Part shown: positions 4,824 through 36,842 of the stretch, one piece after another
How the letters are laid out: each line of letters begins with the position of its first letter
How positions within the stretch are numbered: the first letter of the stretch is position 1
DNA from: an uncultured Neomegalonema sp.
GTDB lineage: Bacteria > Pseudomonadota > Alphaproteobacteria > Rhodobacterales > Rhodobacteraceae
Reading direction: 5' to 3'
NCBI GenBank assembly: GCA_964549375.1
Contig: CAZJWF010000002.1
Span: 23,592 to 87,591, forward strand
DNA length: 64,000 bases
Position numbers and translations under genes: made by a program
Notes under the pieces: generated by a model
Seen by the model: only the letters and a program-made list of their open reading frames with translations
Told to the model about the DNA's origin: nothing
Database searches by the model: none

Positions 4824-5053
4824 AAGCGGCCTCCAACGGGGTCGTTCTGGAACGTCGAACAGTACCGAAGACCTGCTAACGGACGTTTAAGGGATCTAAG
4901 TTTCTGATTTTTATACACCTCACGTTTTGAACCAAATGATGTTAGAAAATCCCCAGATATTTCGGGGAAAAAATGCGACAATTCCCGCGATTCCCCGGTA
5001 AAAGTCGTTAAGCGTTTCTGTAGGACGGATTAAGCGGGGATAATCGGGAGTTT

Positions 5054-5905: not shown

Positions 5906-7158
5906 TCGCCCCTGAGACGCTGTTAAAGGGGATGTTTGATGCCGCCGTTCGTGCGGCTGATCCGATGACATGCGTTCCATCTCACCTTCCCAAACCGCCT
6001 AAGGGCCGGTTGATCGTGATCGGTGCTGGAAAGGCGTCGGCGCGAATGGCTCAAGCGGTCGAAGCGCATTGGCAAGGTGAACTGAGTGGCACCGTTTTGA
6101 CCCGCTACGGGCACAGCGCGCCATGTGAACGGATCGAAATTATTGAAGCGGCCCACCCAGTCCCGGACGCAGCAGGTGTCGCAGGCACTCGAAAAATTTT
6201 CGATACAATCTCTGCTCTAAACGAAGACGATCTAGTGCTCGCGTTGATTTCAGGTGGTGGATCCGCGCTGCTCACCTCACCGGCAAACGGCATTACGCTC
6301 GACGAAAAAATCGCCGTGAATCAAGCTCTGCTGAAATCAGGGGCAGCGATTGGCGAGATGAATACCATTCGAAAACACCTAAGCGCCGTGAAAGGCGGTG
6401 GCCTCGCGGCGGCGGCTTATCCCGCGAGAGTTTTAGCGCTGATGATCTCTGACGTACCGGGCGATGATCCGGCGGTGATTGCGTCCGGTCCGACAGTCGG
6501 AACCGACTCGCATCCCACAGATGCTTTGGCTTTGCTCGAACGTTTCGACGTCAAAGTACCACCCTCGATCGAACGGCATCTCGCAACGGGAACACCGCCA
6601 CCTAGCCCGTCCAGTCAAGCTATCGCGCGGGTCGAGAACCGCGTGATTGCCGCCCCTCAAATGTCATTGGAAGCGGCGGCAGAGGTCGCGGTTCAATCTG
6701 GCGTTACGCCGATCATTCTCGGTGATGCGATTGAGGGAGAATCGCGAGACGTCGCAAAGGTTCACTCCGGTATTGCCAATCAGGTTCTTCGACATGGCCA
6801 GCCCGGAAAAGCGCCTTGTGTTGTGATCTCCGGTGGAGAAACGACCGTCACAGTACGCGGAAGCGGGCGCGGTGGGCGCAATGTCGAATTCTGTCTTGCC
6901 CTCGCCTTAGCGCTCGAAGGCAATAAGAGAATTTGGGGAATTGCTGGAGATACAGACGGCATTGATGGGGCGGAAGAAATTGCCGGAGCCATTGTCACCC
7001 CCGATACGCTCGCGCGCGGCGCGTCAGCAAATTTGAACCCGCGAGAGATGCTGGCCAATAACGACGGGCATCGGTTCTTTGAGGCGATCAAATCTCAACT
7101 CGTAACGGGGCCGACACTCACCAACGTCAACGATTTTCGTGCCGTCCTGATTTTATAA
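5902..7158 (+). CDS. Glycerate 2-kinase / hydroxypyruvate reductase family (DUF4147 + MOFRL)
   Basis: 418 aa. GAGKASARMA, ISGGGSALL, ISGGETTVTV, GTDGIDG motifs. GTGA overlap with the upstream gene. Confidence 0.85.
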   Translation: MIAPETLLKGMFDAAVRAADPMTCVPSHLPKPPKGRLIVIGAGKASARMAQAVEAHWQGELSGTVLTRYGHSAPCERIEIIEAAHPVPDAAGVAGTRKIFDTISALNEDDLVLALISGGGSALLTSPANGITLDEKIAVNQALLKSGAAIGEMNTIRKHLSAVKGGGLAAAAYPARVLALMISDVPGDDPAVIASGPTVGTDSHPTDALALLERFDVKVPPSIERHLATGTPPPSPSSQAIARVENRVIAAPQMSLEAAAEVAVQSGVTPIILGDAIEGESRDVAKVHSGIANQVLRHGQPGKAPCVVISGGETTVTVRGSGRGGRNVEFCLALALALEGNKRIWGIAGDTDGIDGAEEIAGAIVTPDTLARGASANLNPREMLANNDGHRFFEAIKSQLVTGPTLTNVNDFRAVLIL

Positions 7159-12091: not shown

Positions 12092-13008
12092 TCCGAAGAA
12101 CCTTCTTCGCGGGTCTGTTTATCCTGTTCGGAGCGACTGCCTGCGCGTGGACACCAGATATTCCGCGCGCAGAGCTTGCGGAGAAATACCTCGCCGCCCC
12201 CTCTGATTTAAAAGAGGTTGATGGCACGGTTCTTCATGTCCGTGATACTGGTCCACGTAATGCGCGGGTATTGGTGCTAATCCACGGGTTTGGGTCAAGT
12301 TTACACACATGGGATGCGTGGGCGAAAGAACTTGAACGGTCTTACCGTGTCATCCGTTTCGATATGCCCGGTGCTGGCTTATCGCCACCAGACCCGAAAC
12401 GAGATTACACAGACCCGCGTGTGACCGGATTGATTGCCTCCCTCATGGATCAGGTAAACATCCCCCATGCAACGTTGATCGGAAACTCCATCGGTGGACG
12501 GATTGCGTGGACAATGGCGGCATCTCACCCCGAACGGGTTGACGCTCTGGTACTGATCGCCCCGGATGGATTTGCTAGCCCATTCCTGCAGTACGGCGAG
12601 ACAATCAAAGCTCCGGTTATTCTCAAAGCGTCAAAATATTTCCTGCCGCAATGGGCGTTAAAACCAAACCTCGCAGCCGCCTATGCGGACAAGGAAAAAC
12701 TGAGCGATGAAACGCTTAATCGGTATCACGAACTGCTGCTGGCATCCGGCAATCGTGCGGCTTTGATTGATCGATTGGAGCAAACTGTCATTACTGATCC
12801 GATACCTCGGTTGAGAAGTATCACGGCACCGGTGTTGCTATTATGGGGTGAAAAAGACGGCATTATTCCGATTTCAAACGCGCAAGATTATCTCGACGCC
12901 CTCCCCAACGCACGTCTCGCGACCTTGCCCGGACTGGGTCACGTTCCAATGGAGGAAAACCCTGAGCAATCGCTCGCGCCGGTTCAAGAATTTTTAAACA
13001 AGAAATAG
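12088..13008 (+). CDS. Alpha/beta hydrolase (lipoprotein signal)
   Basis: ATGA overlap with the upstream stop. MIRRTFFAGLFILFGATAC lipobox. HGFGSS and GNSIGG nucleophile elbow, with C-terminal GH. Confidence 0.85.
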   Translation: MIRRTFFAGLFILFGATACAWTPDIPRAELAEKYLAAPSDLKEVDGTVLHVRDTGPRNARVLVLIHGFGSSLHTWDAWAKELERSYRVIRFDMPGAGLSPPDPKRDYTDPRVTGLIASLMDQVNIPHATLIGNSIGGRIAWTMAASHPERVDALVLIAPDGFASPFLQYGETIKAPVILKASKYFLPQWALKPNLAAAYADKEKLSDETLNRYHELLLASGNRAALIDRLEQTVITDPIPRLRSITAPVLLLWGEKDGIIPISNAQDYLDALPNARLATLPGLGHVPMEENPEQSLAPVQEFLNKK

Positions 13009-13055
13009 CCGCCGCAAATCTTGACGCCGGATGCCAGTCATGGTGCATCACCCGA

Positions 13056-28409: not shown

Positions 28410-29405
28410 ATGAAAGCTCTCGTTTATACTGGCGTCGGTGAACTCGACTACCGCGATGTACCGGACACCGAATCCAGTACCGAGCTTTCTAAAGTCAAAG
28501 TGGAAGCGGTTGGCATTTGCGGTTCAGATATGCACGCCTATCACGGTGCAGATCCGCGCCGGATGCCGCCATTGATCTTGGGACACGAGGCATGCGGGAT
28601 CGCGGAGACAGGTCGCTATGCCGGGCAGCGCGTGACCGTAAACCCCATGACGACATGTGGCAGGTGCCGGTATTGCATTGAAGGCCGCGACAACATTTGC
28701 CCTGATCGCAAACTGCTTTCTATCCCGCCAAACGAAGGTGCCTTCGCAGAATACTTGGTTATCCCCGACAGCAATCTGGTTCCGGTCCCTGATGGCGTCG
28801 CCCCCGAACAGGCCGCGCTCGCTGAACCAATTGCGTGCGGATGGCATGCGATCCGATTAGGCGCGGAGAGGCTGTCGCAGCCGCTTTCGACAGCGCGGGT
28901 GCTGATTATTGGCGGAGGCGCCATCGGCGTCGGCTCTGCGCTTTGTGCGGCGGATCAAGGCGCGAAAGATATCTGGATCGCCGAACCCAGTGCTGAACGG
29001 CGCGCGACAGCAGCGGCGGCTGGCCCCTTCAAAACCTATGATCCTCGCGCGGGCGGCCCCGAAGAGTCATCCGCTGATCTTGTCATCGACGCCTATGGTT
29101 CAGAAGCCTCTCGCGCTGATGCCTCTCGCTTGGCAGCGCCGGGCGGTGTGATCGCGCATATTGGGTTGGCCGGAGGAGATGCTGGGCTTGATACTCGGAA
29201 AATGACCCTGCAAGAGATCACCTTCATCGGCACGTACACGTACACAATGGCCGATTTTCACGCGACAGCTCAGGCGATCTTTGCGGGACGGATGGGCGAT
29301 TTTAATTGGATCGAACGCCGTCCTCTCAGCGATGGAGCGCAGGCGTTCAAAGACCTCGACAATGCAGCTGTCGGAGCAGCAAAGGTCGTCCTGATCCCAT
29401 CTTGA
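28410..29405 (+). CDS. Zinc-binding alcohol dehydrogenase family (threonine/sorbitol dehydrogenase-like MDR)
   Basis: GICGSDMH.YHG, GHE..G, C..C..C......C structural zinc motif and GGGAIG. Confidence 0.9.
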   Translation: MKALVYTGVGELDYRDVPDTESSTELSKVKVEAVGICGSDMHAYHGADPRRMPPLILGHEACGIAETGRYAGQRVTVNPMTTCGRCRYCIEGRDNICPDRKLLSIPPNEGAFAEYLVIPDSNLVPVPDGVAPEQAALAEPIACGWHAIRLGAERLSQPLSTARVLIIGGGAIGVGSALCAADQGAKDIWIAEPSAERRATAAAAGPFKTYDPRAGGPEESSADLVIDAYGSEASRADASRLAAPGGVIAHIGLAGGDAGLDTRKMTLQEITFIGTYTYTMADFHATAQAIFAGRMGDFNWIERRPLSDGAQAFKDLDNAAVGAAKVVLIPS

Positions 29406-29417
29406 CTGCACAGAAAC

Positions 29418-29451
29418 ACCAGAAAATTGTCGCTTATTTTCTGGTTTTTTT
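29418..29451 (+). terminator. Rho-independent terminator after the dehydrogenase gene
   Basis: ACCAGAAAAT-tgtcgctt-ATTTTCTGGT perfect 10-bp stem followed by TTTTTT. Confidence 0.8.
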
Positions 29452-29554
29452 GCAAGAAATACAACATATTAAAACTAACTTTCGCGGCTGTCATTTAGTT
29501 ATTCTCTACCTCGATGAGGCACCCTACGCCTGTTGCCATATTGAGGGATTGATC

Positions 29555-30304
29555 ATGCTGGTCGCAGAAAAATTTAGTACACCCGTCGAAATTCAACGTC
29601 GCGCGTCCAACCGTGTGCCGTACATTGAACCTTGTTTCGCCCAAACCGACAACCACTCGCTGTGGGTAAAATCCATCAATTTGTCTGAAGGTGGAATGTG
29701 CATCGCCGTTGATCGCCTTGGCGTTCTAAAACGGGGGACAGGTGTCGCAATTTTTATCCAAAATTTTCCGGCACTCGATGCGCGAGTCCAATGGACTCGT
29801 GCGAATATTGCGGGCCTCAAGTTCACCTCTCCCATTGAAGAAAATCCAGATTTCATTGCGCTGATCGAACGCCTTAAATCTGGCGAACCCGCCTGGTTGC
29901 CCGTTGCAAAGCCTGACATCGACTCCGTTGTTGGGCACAGTATCCACGACCTGCTCAACCCAAAGTCAAAGGTGCCTGAACCCACGGTAACGGAAGTCGC
30001 CACGCAACCACTCGCCCAAGTCCGCGCGCATGAACGTCTGAATTTCGACGAAACCTGTTGGGTTGAAACCGATAAGCGGAAGTTCCAAGCACAAGGAATG
30101 AATATCTCGGAGGGCGGAATGTGCCTGCGCCTGAACGGCTTAGGAACCATGCATAATGGCACAGATGTTCGCATTACCTTCGAGGGTCATTCACCCATCG
30201 ACGCCACGCTGCGCTGGAGCAAAGAGCGCGTGATGGGGTTTCAATTCCTGACGCCAATCAAAGATCATCCCATCCTGCGGGATCGAACACCAATTGAGGA
30301 CTGA
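29555..30304 (+). CDS. Tandem PilZ domain protein (putative c-di-GMP receptor)
   Basis: ATG 29555 preceded by GAGGGA. Domain 1 has RRASNR and NLSEGG. Domain 2 has RAHER and NISEGG. These are the RxxxR and D/NxSxxG PilZ motifs. Confidence 0.8.
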   Translation: MLVAEKFSTPVEIQRRASNRVPYIEPCFAQTDNHSLWVKSINLSEGGMCIAVDRLGVLKRGTGVAIFIQNFPALDARVQWTRANIAGLKFTSPIEENPDFIALIERLKSGEPAWLPVAKPDIDSVVGHSIHDLLNPKSKVPEPTVTEVATQPLAQVRAHERLNFDETCWVETDKRKFQAQGMNISEGGMCLRLNGLGTMHNGTDVRITFEGHSPIDATLRWSKERVMGFQFLTPIKDHPILRDRTPIED

Positions 30305-30310
30305 ATAATA

Positions 30311-30358
30311 GGCAGGAAGAGGTGCGCCTGCTCCAGCGCGCCAATCCTGCCGTTTTTT
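30311..30358 (+). terminator. Rho-independent terminator after the PilZ gene
   Basis: GGCAGG...CCTGCC outer stem with an imperfect GC-rich inner stem, followed by GTTTTTTCT. Confidence 0.6.
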
Positions 30359-30572
30359 CTACGTTTCAATGCCTCAACCGATGTCCACCCATTTGCGCCA
30401 GTTGGCGGTAGCATACCGTTCGGCTGTGAGGATTGTTGGTCCACTATTCGTCTGCATTCTGATCACATATTCTCGCGAATTCGTGGACCCGTAGGCAATT
30501 ATTGCTATGCGTTCTATTATCTGATTGATCAGTGGCACTATTGCCATCGAAAAGTCCGGATAGTTACCCGCG

Positions 30573-32507
30573 ATGAAAAAAATCGAACTGTGCGAATCTG
30601 AAATCAATATCCCCTCCCTCCGGAGGGCTTCATTTCAGAGCGACGTACGGTCCAACGAAGACCGCCATCTAGCGATCTGCCTTACCCTCTACAATGAGCC
30701 ATCCAATCTGCTTAAGTCATCATTGGATTCAGTGATCCACAGTCTGGATACTTTGAATCGCAAAAATGCTCATTATCGCCGGGCAACCATCTCAATTATT
30801 GCGGATGGCGAATCTGAAGTTTCACATTCTACCCGCGCGTATCTCAAAACACTTGGCCTACAGCCATGCGCCCATTCACTTACAGATTTTGATGGCAGCG
30901 TTCGGGCAACCCTGCTGTCCCCTTCTAATCCGTCTGCTTCGCTGACGCGCCGCAGCCCGTCGGGAATGGAAATTAGGCTACAAGTCGTCACCAAAGCCCA
31001 AAACGCGGGAAAGTTGGACTCGCACTGGTGGTTCTATCAAGAAATTTGCCCTCCACTTCGCCCGGATTATTGCTTTCAGATCGACGCAGGAACGGTCCTA
31101 TCGCCGAATGCATTTTTCGAGATTTGCGACGAGTTCGATGGAAATCCTGAGACCGCCGGAATAGCTAGCAACGTTATGATCTCGCCGCCGAAAGACGGCA
31201 ACTTGCTGGAATGCTTCCAGTGCGGGGATTTTGCGGTACAGAAAACGATCCGTTGGCCTTCAGAGGTATTCAGCGGTTTTCTCTCCGTCATTCCCGGTCA
31301 GTTTAGCGGTCTGCGTTGGCGGGCTTTTTCTGAGCAAAACTCGAACAACGATCCCTCTCCGAAGGACCGATACTTGCGCGGGCAAACCTGCGATAGCGCG
31401 ACCGAACGCATGATGTATCTGTCTGAAGATCGTATCCTGGGATTTGAGCTGGCGACAGAACCGGACACAATTAATCGGCTTGACTTTGCCCCGAAGGCGG
31501 ACTGCCACACCGACACCTGCAATACCCTTTCAGAGCTGTTGCAGCAGCGGCGCCGTTGGTTGAATGGTAGCTTGTTCTGCCGAAGTTGGATGATCCACAA
31601 AATTCTCAGCATCTTCTCTGATCAGACTCAACCACGATTGAACCGGACCCGCTTTGCTCCGGCATTGTTGAACTTGTGCGTGCAGCATATGTTGGAATGG
31701 TTCCTGCCGTTGCTGAACATCCTACTGCTTGCTGTGACGTGGAATTCGCTGGGAACTCTGGTATCGCCAATATCGGCGACTGCTATTTTCGCCGCATTGG
31801 CGGGAATTTGGGTGCTTCCGACTGCACTAGCTTTGTCCGGTAAAATTGAACGCCTAAGTCCGCAGCATGTTCAAATTTTACTCCAACTAGTGAAAACGGT
31901 CTTCTTTACGATCATCGCGATCAACCTGGTGAGCTTAGCGCAGAAGTCAGATTCTTTTGCGTATCTCTACTATCTATCCATGCCGTTCGCATTGACTGCA
32001 GGTGCGTTCATTGGTGCATTTATCTCAAATCGGACTTTGGTGAAACATCTGAGATCGTCGATCCTGACATTTATCTCTCTCGCGCCTTCTATGTGGCTGA
32101 TGATGTCGTCTTACGCGTTCTTCAACCTTCATGACGGCAGTTGGGGGACCAAAGGACTTTGCCAAAAAGATGCGTGTGCGGCAGGTACAGAGCAGGACAT
32201 CGCAAGACAGTTCAAACGTTTGCGGTTGACGATCGTGTCGGCGTGGCTCGCCTCTAACTTGATCTTAGCGGTTGTCTTAGTGCAAACAGCGGGAATGAGC
32301 ATTGCGCTGACAGTTGCAGCCAGCCTTCAGATCCTAATGATCGCAACGGGGATGATGGGCGTTGTTTCAGCTAAGATGAAACGGTCTGGAGAGCCGCTGT
32401 CGAAAATCCAAAGCGCGGCACATATAACTTGGCGGCGTATCCTCAAATCATTCGTGCGCCGTCCCAGATACTTTCCCGCCGGGAACGACGCACATAAGTT
32501 GCCTTAG
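30573..32507 (+). CDS. Family-2 glycosyltransferase with eukaryotic chitin-synthase-type motif set (chitin-synthase-like processive polysaccharide synthase), multi-TM C-terminus
   Basis: ICLTLYNE (30675..30698), KLDSHWWF, QIDAGT, FLSVIPGQFSGLRW, YLSEDRILGFEL (EDR at 31425..31433), QRRRWLNGS (31545..), HDGSWGTKG (32139..32156). Several hydrophobic helices after residue 360. Confidence 0.85.
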   Translation: MKKIELCESEINIPSLRRASFQSDVRSNEDRHLAICLTLYNEPSNLLKSSLDSVIHSLDTLNRKNAHYRRATISIIADGESEVSHSTRAYLKTLGLQPCAHSLTDFDGSVRATLLSPSNPSASLTRRSPSGMEIRLQVVTKAQNAGKLDSHWWFYQEICPPLRPDYCFQIDAGTVLSPNAFFEICDEFDGNPETAGIASNVMISPPKDGNLLECFQCGDFAVQKTIRWPSEVFSGFLSVIPGQFSGLRWRAFSEQNSNNDPSPKDRYLRGQTCDSATERMMYLSEDRILGFELATEPDTINRLDFAPKADCHTDTCNTLSELLQQRRRWLNGSLFCRSWMIHKILSIFSDQTQPRLNRTRFAPALLNLCVQHMLEWFLPLLNILLLAVTWNSLGTLVSPISATAIFAALAGIWVLPTALALSGKIERLSPQHVQILLQLVKTVFFTIIAINLVSLAQKSDSFAYLYYLSMPFALTAGAFIGAFISNRTLVKHLRSSILTFISLAPSMWLMMSSYAFFNLHDGSWGTKGLCQKDACAAGTEQDIARQFKRLRLTIVSAWLASNLILAVVLVQTAGMSIALTVAASLQILMIATGMMGVVSAKMKRSGEPLSKIQSAAHITWRRILKSFVRRPRYFPAGNDAHKLP

Positions 32508-32520
32508 CGGTCGTGAGACT

Positions 32521-33195
32521 CTACTGCACTTTTTGACCCGCAAGATCGCAATAGGCACCGCCGGTATTCATCTCCCAGCCCCGTGTTAGAAACTGTCCGC
32601 TTGATTGGCGTAGGTTGAGGATGCCGATGTGAACTTCGGCGCCGGTGAGGCTATTTTGAGCCGCCATGACATAAGTCACGACACTTCCGTTTCGACGCAG
32701 TTCCAGAATTTCGCCCTGACCTTTGAAAGAGTCACCAGAACGGAATGAGCTTTCGCCATCCAAACCACCTGTCGCAGCAACTTTGAAGAGCTGCTCACTT
32801 TGCGCCTCGACATCTTGGACGAAGAAGTTGACGTCACAGGTCGCCTTATGCGCCCAACGACCCGCTAACGCCGTGTCGCTCAATCCGGGCAAAGCATCAT
32901 TCGCTCGGTCACGCCACGCTGTTTTATCTGCGACTTGCGGTGTCCATGCTTCGCCGGTTTCTTGCTGGTAGAGGCGCGCCGCACGATCAGCAAACCGACC
33001 ATTCGTAAAGTGCAGCAAATAGGCAGAGATAATTCCGGTATTTTCAGTCCGTTCGGCGGCGGCCCAAAAACTCTCTTCCGCCTGCAGGAGGTCATTTGTC
33101 GCGGCGATGCCGTGATTGGACGCGGCAAAAACGAAAAAGCCTGCGATCAGTGTCGGCAAGGTAAAGCGAAGCCGTTTCAAATGATGTCTCCTCAA
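32521..33195 (-). CDS. Secreted hypothetical protein
   Basis: N-terminal signal-like LPTLIAGFFVFAASNHGIAA. No catalytic motif recognised. Convergent with the synthase gene, with 13 nt between the stop codons. Confidence 0.6.
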   Translation of the reverse strand: MRRHHLKRLRFTLPTLIAGFFVFAASNHGIAATNDLLQAEESFWAAAERTENTGIISAYLLHFTNGRFADRAARLYQQETGEAWTPQVADKTAWRDRANDALPGLSDTALAGRWAHKATCDVNFFVQDVEAQSEQLFKVAATGGLDGESSFRSGDSFKGQGEILELRRNGSVVTYVMAAQNSLTGAEVHIGILNLRQSSGQFLTRGWEMNTGGAYCDLAGQKVQ

Positions 33196-33211
33196 AAAGT
33201 ACGCTCGGCAT

Positions 33212-33237
33212 AGAAAAGGCCGCCCATACGGACGGCC
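33212..33237 (-). terminator. Rho-independent terminator after yceI-like gene
   Basis: On the minus strand, GGCCGTCC-gtat-GGGCGGCC (one mismatch) followed by TTTTCT. Confidence 0.55.
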
Positions 33238-33269
33238 TCATCACTCAATGGAAAACGTTCAGCGCGCAA

Positions 33270-33863
33270 TTACCAACCGCCCGCCTTCATCTCGGAATTG
33301 ATCACCAGCCGGACCCGGTCAGATGTCAGCGGCGCAAACATTCCAACGCCAAAATCAGAACGGAGAATCGTCCCTTCTGCTTTGATACCAATCCAATCAC
33401 CTTCGTAGTGGGGAATGAATTTGCCAAGAGGGTGCGCGCCTTTGTGAATTAGCTTCACATCCAGCGTGATTGGCTTGGTCGTATCTTTGATTGTTAGATC
33501 GCCTTCGACCTTCAATCCGTTCGCCGAGACCTGTGTTGCGCTCGTCGAGACGAATTTGATTTCAGGGTACTTATCCACCTCAAAGAAATCCGCATTGCGC
33601 AGGTGCTTGTCGAGGCCCTCAACTCCCGTATTTACACTTGCCGCATCAATCTTGACTTCGACCTTGGTTGCGGCTGCGTCTTCCTCGTCAAATTTAACCG
33701 TACCCTCTAGGGTGTTCCAACGGCCAGACTGCTCAGAAACGCCCGCGTGGTCCCAGAAGAACCGAATATCGGTATGACTTTTTTCAAGATGGAATGTCTC
33801 CGCCATTGCTGGCGCGGAAACAAACAAAAAAGCGGCAAGAACTGATGTCGTGAATGTACGCAT
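33270..33863 (-). CDS. YceI family periplasmic (polyisoprenoid-binding) protein
   Basis: Signal peptide. HTDIRFFWDH.G and GDLTIKDTTKPITLDVK motifs. Confidence 0.9.
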   Translation of the reverse strand: MRTFTTSVLAAFLFVSAPAMAETFHLEKSHTDIRFFWDHAGVSEQSGRWNTLEGTVKFDEEDAAATKVEVKIDAASVNTGVEGLDKHLRNADFFEVDKYPEIKFVSTSATQVSANGLKVEGDLTIKDTTKPITLDVKLIHKGAHPLGKFIPHYEGDWIGIKAEGTILRSDFGVGMFAPLTSDRVRLVINSEMKAGGW

Positions 33864-33952
33864 GGCTTTTCCTTACATGAGAATATTGCGCCAATTTTTC
33901 AGACTGAGGGGTATCAGCAATACAAGAGTCCGTGATCGCCTGTTACAGCAAC

Positions 33953-35445: not shown

Positions 35446-35841
<396 letters not shown>

Positions 35842-35842
35842 T

Positions 35843-35859
35843 TAGCATTAACCGTGCCA
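35843..35859 (-). promoter_or_regulatory. Candidate sigma54 (-24/-12) promoter for glnB-glnA
   Basis: The minus strand reads TGGCAC-GGTTA-ATGCT (consensus TGGCAC-N5-TTGCW). GG and GC spacing is correct. About 60 nt upstream of the glnB ATG. Confidence 0.5.
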
Positions 35860-35975
35860 TATTTTTATGTGTTGTTTTTCAATAGATTAGTCAAAATAAG
35901 CAGAATTATAGCGCTTATTTTTTAGGCAGTGTGATGAAAAATTAGGCGGATTACACGTTGTATTGCAAGAAAACT

Positions 35976-35992
35976 GCGGCAATTTTTGCCGC
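35976..35992. repeat. Perfect palindrome GCGGCAA-TTT-TTGCCGC (possible enhancer-binding-protein site or hairpin)
   Basis: Read directly from the sequence. The centre lies about 125 bp upstream of the candidate -24 element, with an AT-rich spacer between. Confidence 0.4.
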
Positions 35993-36541
35993 TCAACGAA
36001 GCCATACCGCCTGACCCACCCTCGGGCCACTACTGCGTTGATCGCCGCCACGACGAACGTCCTTCGTGCTCTGCCGAACGAACCGCTTTCGATGCGAGCC
36101 ACCATCAATCTCTTCACGAACCGGGCATTCAAATCAAAGGATATGTAACGGAGATTACCGACTCAGTTCCGAGTTCGCAAAACCGCAAAATCGGCGCCCC
36201 GTATCATTAGAGATGTGAACTGCTTCACAATTAAACAACAGCAGAGCGGCGGGGAAAATCTCGGCTTAATAGCAATAAGTTGTTCGCGTCGAGAGCACCG
36301 CGATTCCCAACAGTGATCGTCTTGTGAATGGCCACCCCCGGCATCAAGGTCGGGTTCAAAACCCTCTATGCCGCTTGAATCAATTCAATAATTCTTTGCC
36401 AATGAAATTCGAGCATCGAAACCCGACAGCAATATTTTTCTGACATACTCGTTAGCAGGTGAGGCACAAGCCGGTTGGCGTGGATTTTGTACTTGGAATG
36501 CACGCTAATCGGGGTAGGCTGATGAAATCAGCGGGGGCTAA

Positions 36542-36748
36542 ATGATGACTACTAAATTAGGCAAGCTTTTGGGTCGAAGTGCCGAAGGCACTGAAAAAGA
36601 GACAATCGGCGAGGACATGGTCCCTTCGCCAGACGCGCTAGCGCAAAGATCTGCTCTTTCCGACGCCACAGATTTTTCGCATCCGAAATCGTCCACTGGG
36701 CCTTTTTCCAGCATAGCTCGTGCGCCTGTACGCGACTTTACTGGTTAA
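36542..36748 (+). CDS. Possible small hypothetical protein (68 aa)
   Basis: ATG preceded by GCGGGGG (SD-like) and a 6-bp hairpin. The translation is low-complexity or disordered. No family recognised. Confidence 0.2.
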   Translation: MMTTKLGKLLGRSAEGTEKETIGEDMVPSPDALAQRSALSDATDFSHPKSSTGPFSSIARAPVRDFTG

Positions 36749-36842
36749 GAACCCGTAAAGCGGAATTCTGCTGCCATTGACACTTCACGTGTACACGGGC
36801 AATCCATGATGCGTGGATTGAGACCGTGCGGGGTTAGATTTC

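What the first reader, a model, noticed from the sequence alone, without database searches (positions are those of the whole stretch)
29418..33240. Candidate minimal c-di-GMP / chitin-synthase-like exopolysaccharide module without export or modification genes
Between two ordinary genes (a Zn-dehydrogenase and yceI) lie only three ORFs: the di-PilZ protein, the synthase-like GT2 and a convergent secreted protein. There is also an unusually long AT-rich spacer (30359..30572). No Wza/Wzc, BcsB/BcsC, PgaA/B, deacetylase, glycoside hydrolase, transposase or integrase gene is present. If functional, the synthase would have to polymerise and translocate on its own, as eukaryotic chitin synthases do. 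That would be an unusual architecture for a Gram-negative bacterium, where crossing the outer membrane normally needs dedicated partners. Spot base counts suggest the 5' half of the synthase gene is more AT-rich. I counted 25-29 G+C per 60 nt on three sampled lines, against 33-36 in glnA and the dehydrogenase-like gene at 10.8 kb. A yidC line also gave 26 of 60, so a compositional island is not established.
Basis: inference. Interest (0 to 1): 0.65.

Follow-up and report, generated by a model that had tools for sequence, protein, structure and literature searches.

The report
Bacterial chitin synthase with periplasmic partner
An alga-associated alphaproteobacterium carries an intact eukaryote-type chitin synthase gene that always travels with a small, previously undescribed secreted protein, while the neighbouring c-di-GMP receptor gene looks like a neighbour, not a proven part of the system.

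Summary
The three ORFs exist and no export or modification genes lie within about 15 kb. The 644-aa GT2 is a real division-1 chitin synthase (CHS). It passes Pfam Chitin_synth_1, keeps all nine PsChs1 catalytic and channel motifs, and its AF2 model overlays fungal and oomycete CHS structures at TM 0.72-0.75. Bacterial CHS genes were described in 2016 but have not been tested.

The new result is the convergent secreted protein (219 aa). It has a signal peptide, TPR-like helices and an 8-stranded beta-barrel with two invariant cysteines. It sits tail-to-tail with CHS in at least three different genomic contexts. Its family has only 15 members among 5.8 billion proteins.

The di-PilZ has canonical c-di-GMP motifs in both domains. 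However, it belongs by synteny to the OAH-sulfhydrylase/ADH block. In the sister clade that block keeps the di-PilZ while CHS and its partner lie elsewhere. In the window a terminator-like hairpin and a separately conserved promoter region separate the di-PilZ from CHS.

There is no compositional island (CHS GC3 z = 0.03), and the spacer is ordinary. So this is a two-gene CHS cassette, and c-di-GMP control is unproven. It is a new variant of a known kind, of moderate interest.

The parts
29418..29445 (+). Terminator-like hairpin (10-bp stem followed by T7) just after the ADH stop. It separates ADH from the di-PilZ gene.
   Evidence: Scan hit; sequence read.
29509..29548 (+). Conserved inverted repeat in the di-PilZ leader (CCTCGAT...ATTGAGGG). 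It pairs with the GAGGG Shine-Dalgarno sequence just upstream of ATG 29555.
   Evidence: Conserved in the window, L001 and L006. Folds have z-scores of -2.5, -1.8 and -1.6. Function untested.
29555..30304 (+). di-PilZ protein, 249 aa: two PilZ domains joined by a variable linker. Candidate c-di-GMP receptor.
   Evidence: Pfam PilZ E = 4e-21 with 2 stretches. The motifs RRxxxR + NLSxGG (domain 1) and RxxxR + xxSEGG (domain 2) are invariant or nearly so in 10 homologues. Homologues begin at MLVAEKF.
30311..30358 (+). Hairpin followed by a T6 run after the di-PilZ stop; a likely intrinsic terminator.
   Evidence: Fold of -29.1 kcal/mol, z = -4.0, 0 of 200 shuffles as stable. The sequence is not conserved in L001 or L006.
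30460..30572 (+). Conserved block of about 110 nt directly upstream of the CHS start. It contains a promoter-like TAGGCA-17-TATTAT site (30492-30520).
   Evidence: Alignment of the window, L001 and L006 spacers; promoter scan. Conservation in this spacer is concentrated here; farther upstream there are only isolated identical columns.
30573..32507 (+). Chitin synthase (GT2, division-1 CHS type, bacterial clade), 644 aa. It has a cytoplasmic GT-A domain, interfacial helices and a transmembrane channel.
   Evidence: Pfam. PDB sequence search: PsChs1 7wjm E = 1.6e-35 over residues 31-548. 20 invariant columns across 63 CHS sequences. AF2 pLDDT 90.2. Foldseek TMq 0.72-0.75 to CaChs2, ScChs1 and PsChs1.
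32521..33180 (-). Periplasmic partner protein, 219 aa (the ORF extends to 33195). It has a signal peptide, TPR-like helical hairpins (about residues 34-110) and an 8-stranded up-and-down beta-barrel (112-222) with invariant Cys120 and Cys216. It lies tail-to-tail with CHS across a 13-nt gap.
   Evidence: Family of 15 proteins that forms one cluster in 1.84e9 representatives. AF2 pLDDT 83.7. Foldseek hits are nitrobindin, lipocalin and designed barrels. It is adjacent to CHS in L001, L002, L006-8, L011, L014/15, L069 and L070.
33218..33239 (-). Terminator-like hairpin (10-bp stem, then UUUCU) after the yceI stop, upstream of the partner gene.
   Evidence: Fold (z = -2.5); sequence.

Best explanation
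The core of the locus is a two-gene cassette.

1. An inner-membrane, eukaryote-type (division-1) chitin synthase. It most likely polymerises UDP-GlcNAc into beta-1,4-GlcNAc chains in the cytoplasm and threads them through its own transmembrane channel into the periplasm.
2. A co-inherited soluble periplasmic protein made of TPR-like helices and an 8-stranded calycin-like beta-barrel with two invariant cysteines that may form a disulfide. It most likely acts on the emerging product by binding, guiding or anchoring it.

The cassette is vertically inherited and under purifying selection in a narrow group of alga- and marine-associated Alphaproteobacteria related to Neomegalonema.

The upstream di-PilZ is very probably a real c-di-GMP receptor, but it is a separate transcription unit. 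It belongs by synteny to the ADH block, so its adjacency to CHS is clade-specific and control of CHS by c-di-GMP is only a possibility.

Shown: family membership, intact motifs, fold, synteny patterns and normal composition. Inferred: the substrate and product, the periplasmic location and role of the partner, and how or whether the product crosses the outer membrane.
For: CHS identity:
- Pfam Chitin_synth_1 at 71.8 bits (cutoff 25), plus Chitin_synth_2.
- Best solved relatives are chitin synthases only: PsChs1 E = 1.6e-35, aligned over residues 31-548.
- All nine PsChs1 motifs (defined in PMC9556331) are present: TLYNE 38-42, DGE 78-80, NAGKL 144-148, DAGT 171-174, QCGDF 216-220, VIPGQ 239-243, EDR 285-287, QRRRW 325-329, SWG 523-525.
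- AF2 pLDDT is 90.2. Foldseek TMq is 0.72-0.75 to CHS, against 0.39 to hyaluronan synthase and 0.36 to BcsA.

Selection and inheritance:
- Relatives have intact 631-659-aa genes.
- Of the 12 best-supported strain-level SNPs in CHS, 7 are synonymous and 5 non-synonymous. There are no stops or frameshifts.
- GC3 is host-like.
- The locus is fully syntenic in L001, L006/7 and L008.

Partner:
- It is convergent and adjacent to CHS in three contexts: yceI/glnA (the window's clade), radical-SAM/MaoC (L002, L011, L014, L070) and beta-lactamase-family (L069, next to a P0010-type CHS).
- The family is found only there.
- The confident model shows a signal peptide, helices and a barrel.

di-PilZ:
- The c-di-GMP motifs are conserved.
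- It is unlinked from CHS in L012 and L013.
Against: - No biochemical or expression data exist. No RNA run holds the gene.
- Product identity and chain length cannot be read from sequence. Motif 5 is QCGDF rather than QxFEY, and motif 2 is DGE rather than DGR.
- The partner is transcribed convergently, not in an operon with CHS, and has no detectable carbohydrate-binding family signature.
- One CHS subclade (L009, L010, L016; 47% identity) lacks the partner within the available flanks.
- No route across the outer membrane is identified.
Confidence: 0.6

Rival explanations
1. One reading: di-PilZ, CHS and the secreted protein form one c-di-GMP-gated exopolysaccharide module. The di-PilZ would act in trans as the activating subunit, in the way the fused PilZ of BcsA or the PilZ of Alg44 does.
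For: - Both PilZ domains keep the canonical binding motifs.
- The di-PilZ lies directly upstream of CHS on the same strand in every member of the window's clade examined.
- It is unusually constrained there (80-84% identity, against 65-71% for CHS) but only 48% identical to the unlinked sister-clade orthologue.
- All 5 of the best-supported strain SNPs in it are synonymous.
- In the sister clade a single-domain PilZ gene lies 4.5 kb from CHS.
Against: - The di-PilZ stays with the OAHS/ADH block when CHS is elsewhere (L012, L013).
- A hairpin with a T-run follows the di-PilZ stop, and CHS has its own promoter block.
- There is no PilZ near about 40 other bacterial CHS loci.
- CHS has no conserved terminal segment that looks like a docking site.
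- No paper in the library links bacterial CHS and c-di-GMP.
Confidence: 0.2
2. The enzyme makes short chito-oligosaccharides rather than polymer, in a NodC-like role. These leave through general porins and act as signals towards the algal host, so no dedicated exporter is needed.
For: - There are no export genes within about 15 kb.
- The organism comes from algae metagenomes.
- The oligosaccharide idea was already raised for bacterial CHS in PMC5122149.
Against: - The protein keeps the whole CHS transmembrane channel, the gate-lock VxPG loop and the SWG loop of processive synthases.
- It has no NodC hit in NCBIfam.
- There are no nod-type modification or NodIJ-type transport genes nearby.
Confidence: 0.15
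3. The secreted protein is only a conserved neighbour and has no role in chitin synthesis.
For: - It is transcribed convergently and not co-transcribed with CHS.
- It has no carbohydrate-binding or glycoside-hydrolase signature.
- The L009/L016 CHS subclade lacks it.
Against: - The tail-to-tail adjacency (13-nt gap, or a 4-nt overlap) is preserved across three unrelated flanking contexts and down to 46-58% CHS identity.
- The family is restricted to these loci.
Confidence: 0.12
4. The synthase is a decaying or silent relic of horizontal transfer from a eukaryote.
For: - Bacterial CHS are thought to derive from a eukaryote-to-bacterium transfer (PMC5122149).
- CHS and its partner are the fastest-evolving genes in the neighbourhood.
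Against: - All motifs are intact, and 20 columns are invariant across 63 sequences.
- Full-length orthologues exist in many lineages.
- GC3 is fully host-like.
- Synonymous changes are in excess, with no frameshifts among strains.
- The upstream promoter block is conserved.
Confidence: 0.05

Closest known systems
Bacterial division-1 chitin synthases (Goncalves et al. 2016, PMC5122149): Dickeya, Pectobacterium, Brenneria, Marinomonas, Teredinibacter and others
   Same: - Same Pfam domains and a short N-terminus without Chitin_synth_1N.
- In an NJ tree the window's protein nests inside the bacterial/metagenomic CHS radiation, next to the Marinomonas group.
- Function is untested in all of them.
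   Different: - Only 27-32% identical.
- No DUF1800/DUF1501, epimerase or fused aminotransferase.
- Instead there is a convergent orphan periplasmic protein, and in one clade a di-PilZ neighbour.
- The host is a Neomegalonema-like alphaproteobacterium from algal and marine samples.
Eukaryotic chitin synthases with solved structures (Phytophthora sojae Chs1 7wjm, Candida albicans Chs2 7stl, S. cerevisiae Chs1 7xs6)
   Same: - All nine catalytic and channel motifs, the GT-A domain, the interfacial helices and the transmembrane channel.
- Foldseek TMq 0.72-0.75.
   Different: - About 20% identity.
- It lacks the N-terminal MIT/NTD domains used for dimerisation and trafficking.
- Motif 5 is QCGDF instead of QxFEY.
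- It would deliver product into a Gram-negative periplasm, not to the cell exterior.
c-di-GMP-gated synthase-dependent systems (BcsA-BcsB cellulose, Alg8-Alg44 alginate, PgaCD PNAG)
   Same: - An inner-membrane processive GT2 with its own channel and the D,D,D,QxxRW signature.
- A PilZ protein encoded next door, in one clade.
- A TPR-like periplasmic component.
   Different: - Weak structural match (BcsA TMq 0.36), and PgaC NCBIfam at 18 bits against a cutoff of 422.
- The PilZ is neither fused nor conserved in linkage.
- No BcsB, no outer-membrane porin/TPR protein and no modifying enzymes.
NodC chito-oligosaccharide synthase of rhizobia
   Same: A bacterial GT2 that makes beta-1,4-GlcNAc chains, with a possible role in host signalling.
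   Different: - No NodC match in NCBIfam.
- The window's protein is far closer to true CHS and keeps the full CHS transmembrane channel and SWG loop.
- There are no nod genes nearby.
Calycin-type 8-stranded barrels (nitrobindin, lipocalins, Rv2717c)
   Same: The C-terminal half of the partner is predicted as an up-and-down 8-stranded barrel of this type (Foldseek E about 1e-4 to 1e-3).
   Different: - No sequence similarity. The only profile hit to the PDB is E = 0.13, and there is no relation to the adjacent YceI.
- It has an extra TPR-like helical N-domain.
- The ligand is unknown.

Membership tests
Chitin synthase (GT2; Pfam PF01644/PF03142) | Profile match above the curated threshold | tested here: met
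   Chitin_synth_1 at 71.8 bits (cutoff 25) and Chitin_synth_2 at 40.7 bits (cutoff 27).
Chitin synthase (GT2; Pfam PF01644/PF03142) | The nine conserved motifs of the reaction chamber and channel entrance (TMYNE, DGR, KASKL, DVGT, QxFEY, VLPG, EDR, QRxRW, SWG; PMC9556331) | tested here: met
   The window has TLYNE, DGE, NAGKL, DAGT, QCGDF, VIPGQ, EDR, QRRRW and SWG. The residues shown by mutagenesis to be essential are present (D78, D171, E285, D286, R326, W329, P241, W524). Motif 2 (R to E) and motif 5 (E to D, Y to F, F to G) carry substitutions.
Chitin synthase (GT2; Pfam PF01644/PF03142) | CHS fold including the polymer-translocating transmembrane domain | tested here: met
   AF2 pLDDT 90.2 and pTM 0.89. 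Foldseek TMq 0.72-0.75 over 630-700 columns to CaChs2, ScChs1 and PsChs1.
Chitin synthase (GT2; Pfam PF01644/PF03142) | Catalysis of UDP-GlcNAc to beta-1,4-GlcNAc polymer | not testable with these tools
   Needs an enzyme assay and product analysis.
Bacterial CHS clade of Goncalves et al. 2016 | Short N-terminus lacking Chitin_synth_1N (PF08407), and grouping with bacterial CHS | tested here: met
   No PF08407 hit. About 30 residues precede motif 1. The NJ tree places it within the bacterial radiation, without support values.
Bacterial CHS clade of Goncalves et al. 2016 | Operon with DUF1800/DUF1501 and/or a sugar epimerase | tested here: not met
   Absent from the window. Present in Marinomonas L004.
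Synthase-dependent exopolysaccharide secretion systems (Bcs, Pga, Alg, Pel) | Outer-membrane beta-barrel porin with a TPR scaffold | tested here: not met
   None within about 15 kb. The partner's barrel has only 8 strands, charged residues on both strand faces, two invariant cysteines and no C-terminal aromatic residue, so it looks soluble (reading of the sequence).
Synthase-dependent exopolysaccharide secretion systems (Bcs, Pga, Alg, Pel) | c-di-GMP receptor that is part of, or obligatorily linked to, the synthase | tested here: inconclusive
   The di-PilZ is adjacent only in the window's clade. It is unlinked in L012/L014 and L013, and no PilZ lies near other CHS loci. Physical interaction was not testable.
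PilZ c-di-GMP receptors | PilZ domain with the RxxxR and (D/N)xSxxG motifs | tested here: met
   Pfam PilZ E = 4e-21 with two stretches. R16/R20 and N42, S44, G47, and R157/R161 and S185, G188, are invariant in 10 homologues.
PilZ c-di-GMP receptors | Binding of c-di-GMP | not testable with these tools
   Needs ITC, DRaCALA or similar.
NodC / PgaC-type bacterial GlcNAc synthases | Match to the NCBIfam equivalog models | tested here: not met
   Only PgaC_IcaA appears, at 18.2 bits against a cutoff of 422. No NodC model is reported at E <= 0.01.

The most novel reading that the evidence does not exclude
A self-contained bacterial chitin secretion system. In this reading a eukaryote-type chitin synthase is switched on by c-di-GMP through a free-standing di-PilZ subunit. 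Its product is then handled in the periplasm by a new TPR-plus-beta-barrel protein, with no dedicated outer-membrane porin. This would be the first demonstrated bacterial chitin producer and a new way of coupling c-di-GMP to a polysaccharide synthase.
Probability: 0.12. Interest if true: 0.8.

Novelty: new variant of a known kind. Interest (0 to 1): 0.5.

Why it matters
Chitin is regarded as a eukaryotic polymer. Bacterial chitin-synthase genes were noticed in 2016, but no follow-up was found in the paper library searched here, and I know of no demonstration that one makes chitin.

This locus offers a compact and experimentally tractable case: one synthase with every catalytic motif intact, plus one conserved and previously undescribed periplasmic partner. 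It occurs in bacteria that live on algae.

If the enzyme is active, bacteria would join the producers of chitin or chito-oligosaccharides in marine surface communities. The partner family would also gain a function. It would allow a direct test of whether a chitin synthase can work in a Gram-negative envelope without a dedicated exporter. The neighbouring di-PilZ gives a simple test of c-di-GMP control.

Tried and rejected
- **Compositional island or recent insertion: rejected.** GC3 z-scores run from 0.03 to -1.1. The locus is syntenic in all close relatives. Four algae-metagenome runs show the region contiguous, with no well-supported deletion form.
- **Riboswitch or known RNA in the spacers: none found.** Rfam gave nothing at E <= 1 for 29000-33900, and nothing at gathering score for the whole window.
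- **Unusual AT-rich spacer: rejected**.
- **Partner as a diverged YceI paralogue: rejected.** hhalign probability is 0.1%.
- **Partner as an outer-membrane barrel or mini-porin: considered unlikely.** Both strand faces carry charged residues, two cysteines are invariant and there is no terminal aromatic residue. The fold hits include a few outer-membrane-type barrels, so it is not excluded.
- **Known-family hits for the partner: none.** Pfam, PHROGs, NCBIfam and a PDB profile search gave nothing usable.
- **Expression data: none available.** No RNA run holds the gene.
- **PilZ as a general companion of bacterial CHS: rejected**.
- **A palindromic operator in the conserved CHS upstream block: no support.** Nothing was detected with 6-nt seeds.
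- **A conserved docking tail on CHS: not seen**.
- **Literature on Meganema/Neomegalonema and chitin: nothing relevant**.

Full report
**1. What is there**

Between a Zn-dependent dehydrogenase (28410-29405) and yceI (33270-33863, minus strand) lie three genes.

- The first encodes a 249-aa protein with two PilZ domains. The mechanical ORF starts at TTG 29306, but all homologues begin at MLVAEKF, which is ATG 29555.
- The second (30573-32507) encodes a 644-aa GT2. It passes Pfam Chitin_synth_1 (71.8 bits against a cutoff of 25) and Chitin_synth_2.
- The third, convergent with the second and 13 nt from its stop, encodes a protein with an N-terminal signal peptide. Its likely start is TTG 33180, behind a GAGGAG Shine-Dalgarno sequence, giving 219 aa.
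- The ten genes on either side are housekeeping: cobD, a LysR regulator, photolyase, cyclopropane-fatty-acid synthase, glnA/glnB, ABC transporters and others. There is no Wza/Wzc, BcsB/C, PgaA/B, deacetylase, glycoside hydrolase, transposase or integrase.

**2. Compositional claims**

- The region is not a compositional island. GC3 of the synthase is 0.574, against a window mean of 0.572 (sd 0.046). The di-PilZ and the partner are within about 1.1 sd.
- The somewhat low total GC of the 3.8-kb region (0.515, rank 7 of 301 windows of equal size) comes from first and second codon positions and from the spacers.
- The spacer before the synthase (268 nt, GC 0.50) matches the window's intergenic mean (0.49). 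Six other spacers in the window are longer.
- The 5' half of the gene is not more AT-rich than the 3' half.

**3. The synthase is a real chitin synthase**

- Against all PDB sequences the only matches are chitin synthases. Phytophthora sojae Chs1 scores E = 1.6e-35, aligned from residue 31 to 548. Candida Chs2 and yeast Chs1 also match.
- The nine motifs that build the PsChs1 reaction chamber and channel entrance (PMC9556331) are all present: TLYNE, DGE, NAGKL, DAGT, QCGDF, VIPGQ, EDR, QRRRW and SWG.
- The residues shown by mutagenesis to be essential are present, and most of them fall among the 20 invariant columns of a 63-sequence alignment of bacterial and eukaryotic CHS.
- An AF2 model built on that alignment is confident (pLDDT 90.2, pTM 0.89).
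- The model superposes on the fungal and oomycete enzymes over 630-700 columns with TMq 0.72-0.75. Hyaluronan synthase gives 0.39 and BcsA 0.36.
- The protein has only about 30 residues before motif 1 and lacks the eukaryotic N-terminal domains.

**4. It is a known kind**

- Goncalves et al. 2016 (PMC5122149) described about a dozen bacterial division-1 CHS. They interpreted them as a eukaryote-to-bacterium transfer followed by spread among bacteria.
- They noted the short N-terminus and an operon with DUF1800/DUF1501 or an epimerase. Function was left open.
- I found no later functional work, and no paper linking bacterial CHS to c-di-GMP.
- In an NJ tree without support values, the window's protein nests inside the bacterial/metagenomic radiation, next to the Marinomonas group.
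- Its close relatives are few. Clade A is 65-71% identical (one is a MAG labelled Neomegalonema sp., Rhodobacterales). Clade B is 57% identical. Clade C is 44-49% identical.
- The window itself is found in algae-metagenome runs.

**5. Synteny separates the three genes into two units**

- In clade A (L001, L006/7, L008) the order is OAH-sulfhydrylase / ADH / di-PilZ / CHS / partner (reverse) / yceI (reverse) / glnA (reverse) / glnB (reverse). This order is conserved, with a TPP enzyme inserted before the di-PilZ in L006/7.
- In clade B, CHS and the partner sit tail-to-tail between MaoC/ribF and a radical-SAM gene (L002, L011, L014/15, L070).
- In the same metagenome sample as L014, the di-PilZ orthologue (48% identical) is still found after abhydrolase / OAH-sulfhydrylase / ADH, with no CHS beside it (L012). 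L013 shows the same.
- A third context places the partner after a beta-lactamase-family gene. The end of that contig encodes, on the opposite strand, the C-terminus of a P0010-type (clade C) CHS (L069).
- The conserved unit is therefore CHS plus partner. The di-PilZ belongs to the left flank.
- About 40 more distant CHS loci from metagenomes have no PilZ and no partner homologue. Their recurrent neighbours are Trans_reg_C/TPR regulators, ABC and HlyD components, and occasionally AlgX/MBOAT.

**6. Transcription signals agree**

- A hairpin with T7 follows ADH.
- A strong hairpin with T6 follows the di-PilZ stop (-29 kcal/mol, z = -4). Its sequence is not conserved in L001 or L006.
- In the di-PilZ/CHS spacer, conservation is concentrated in the last ~110 nt before the CHS start, which include a promoter-like site.
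- A 10-bp hairpin with a U-run follows yceI, upstream of the partner gene.
- No hairpin fits between the convergent stops, which even overlap by 4 nt in clade B. The two transcripts must therefore run into each other.

**7. The partner**

- The family has 15 members in the 5.8-billion-protein collection.
- Its full length forms one cluster among 1.84 billion representatives.
- The alignment shows many invariant aromatic residues and two invariant cysteines, C120 and C216.
- AF2 (pLDDT 83.7) predicts a disordered signal peptide, four to five helices (34-110) and an 8-stranded up-and-down barrel (112-222).
- The barrel resembles nitrobindin, lipocalins and designed soluble barrels.
- The helical part matches repeat units found in periplasmic caspase-domain, PG_binding_1 and YfiO/TPR-like proteins.
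- It is unrelated to YceI.
- I read it as soluble and periplasmic. Both strand faces carry charges, two cysteines are invariant, and there is neither a lipobox nor a terminal aromatic residue. This is inference.

**8. The di-PilZ**

- Both domains carry the RxxxR and (D/N)xSxxG motifs, invariant or nearly so across ten homologues. c-di-GMP binding is therefore likely.
- Points that keep a link to CHS alive:
  - constant adjacency within clade A;
  - unusually high constraint there (80-84% identity, and all 5 of the best-supported SNPs synonymous) against 48% identity to the unlinked orthologue;
  - a single-domain PilZ gene 4.5 kb from CHS in clade B.
- These points are suggestive only.

**9. 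Selection**

- Between the window and L001, identities are: glnA 96%, OAHS 92%, ADH 92%, di-PilZ 84%, yceI 74%, CHS 65% and partner 64%.
- CHS and the partner are thus the fastest-evolving genes here, yet they remain intact.
- Of the 12 best-supported strain-level SNPs in CHS, 7 are synonymous and 5 non-synonymous. None hits a motif, and there are no indels in coding sequence.

**10. Verdict**

This is an intact bacterial chitin synthase with no export machinery nearby. Its real companion is a new periplasmic protein, and the c-di-GMP link is unproven.
- Most likely mechanism (confidence 0.6): the synthase polymerises GlcNAc in the cytoplasm and translocates the chain into the periplasm by itself, and the partner acts on the product there.
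- The fate of the product beyond the periplasm is unknown.

Noticed in passing
window 29509-29548 (also L001 about 6941-6982 and L006 about 4958-4998): The di-PilZ leader contains a conserved inverted repeat whose 3' arm covers the GAGGG Shine-Dalgarno sequence. Folds are moderately better than shuffles (z = -2.5, -1.8 and -1.6). It may be a translational control element. There is no Rfam match.
   Followed up: partly
window 30460-30572: In the di-PilZ/CHS spacer, conservation across relatives with 65-71% identical CHS is concentrated in a block of about 110 nt directly upstream of the CHS start codon. It includes GATCACAT-TTCTCGCGAA-GTGGACCCGTAGGCA and a promoter-like site. It may be a regulator binding site. 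No exact inverted repeat was detected.
   Followed up: partly
L014 17125-17472 (and L002 1081-1434): In the sister clade a 115-117-aa single-domain PilZ gene, 33-34% identical to part of the window's di-PilZ, lies between argF and hslO, about 4.5 kb from CHS. It could be chance, or a second hint of a PilZ-CHS association.
   Followed up: no
L006 3180-4808 and L007 1544-3172: A 542-aa thiamine-pyrophosphate enzyme is inserted between ADH and di-PilZ in one clade-A lineage. The junction to the left of the di-PilZ is therefore also a site of rearrangement.
   Followed up: no
window 32508-32520; L014 10654-10657; L070 2631-2634: CHS and its partner end tail-to-tail, with a 13-nt gap or a 4-nt overlap and no terminator between them. 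Convergent transcripts must overlap, which could couple their expression through antisense effects.
   Followed up: partly
Loci L016-L068 (soil, peat and freshwater metagenome CHS loci): Distant bacterial CHS genes (25-37% identical) are common in soil and peat metagenomes. Their recurrent neighbours include Trans_reg_C plus TPR regulators (7 of 126 neighbours), ABC/HlyD components, PEP mutase and, in two loci, AlgX plus MBOAT O-acetylation genes.
   Followed up: partly
window 29592-29907 and 30596-31011 (run X1): Two low-depth contig joints in one algae-metagenome run skip 314 nt inside the di-PilZ gene and 414 nt at the 5' end of CHS. Depth is about 5, against 27 for the intact form, and the anchoring sides are short. 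They are probably assembly artefacts or minor strain variants.
   Followed up: no
window 35785-36842 and 12092-13055: Two stretches of about 1 kb have no ORF in the greedy gene list. One lies upstream of glnB and one lies before cobD. There is no Rfam family at gathering score anywhere in the window.
   Followed up: no
P0003 (clade-A CHS homologue): One close homologue reads SWGRKG instead of the otherwise invariant SWGTKG in the loop of motif 9.
   Followed up: no
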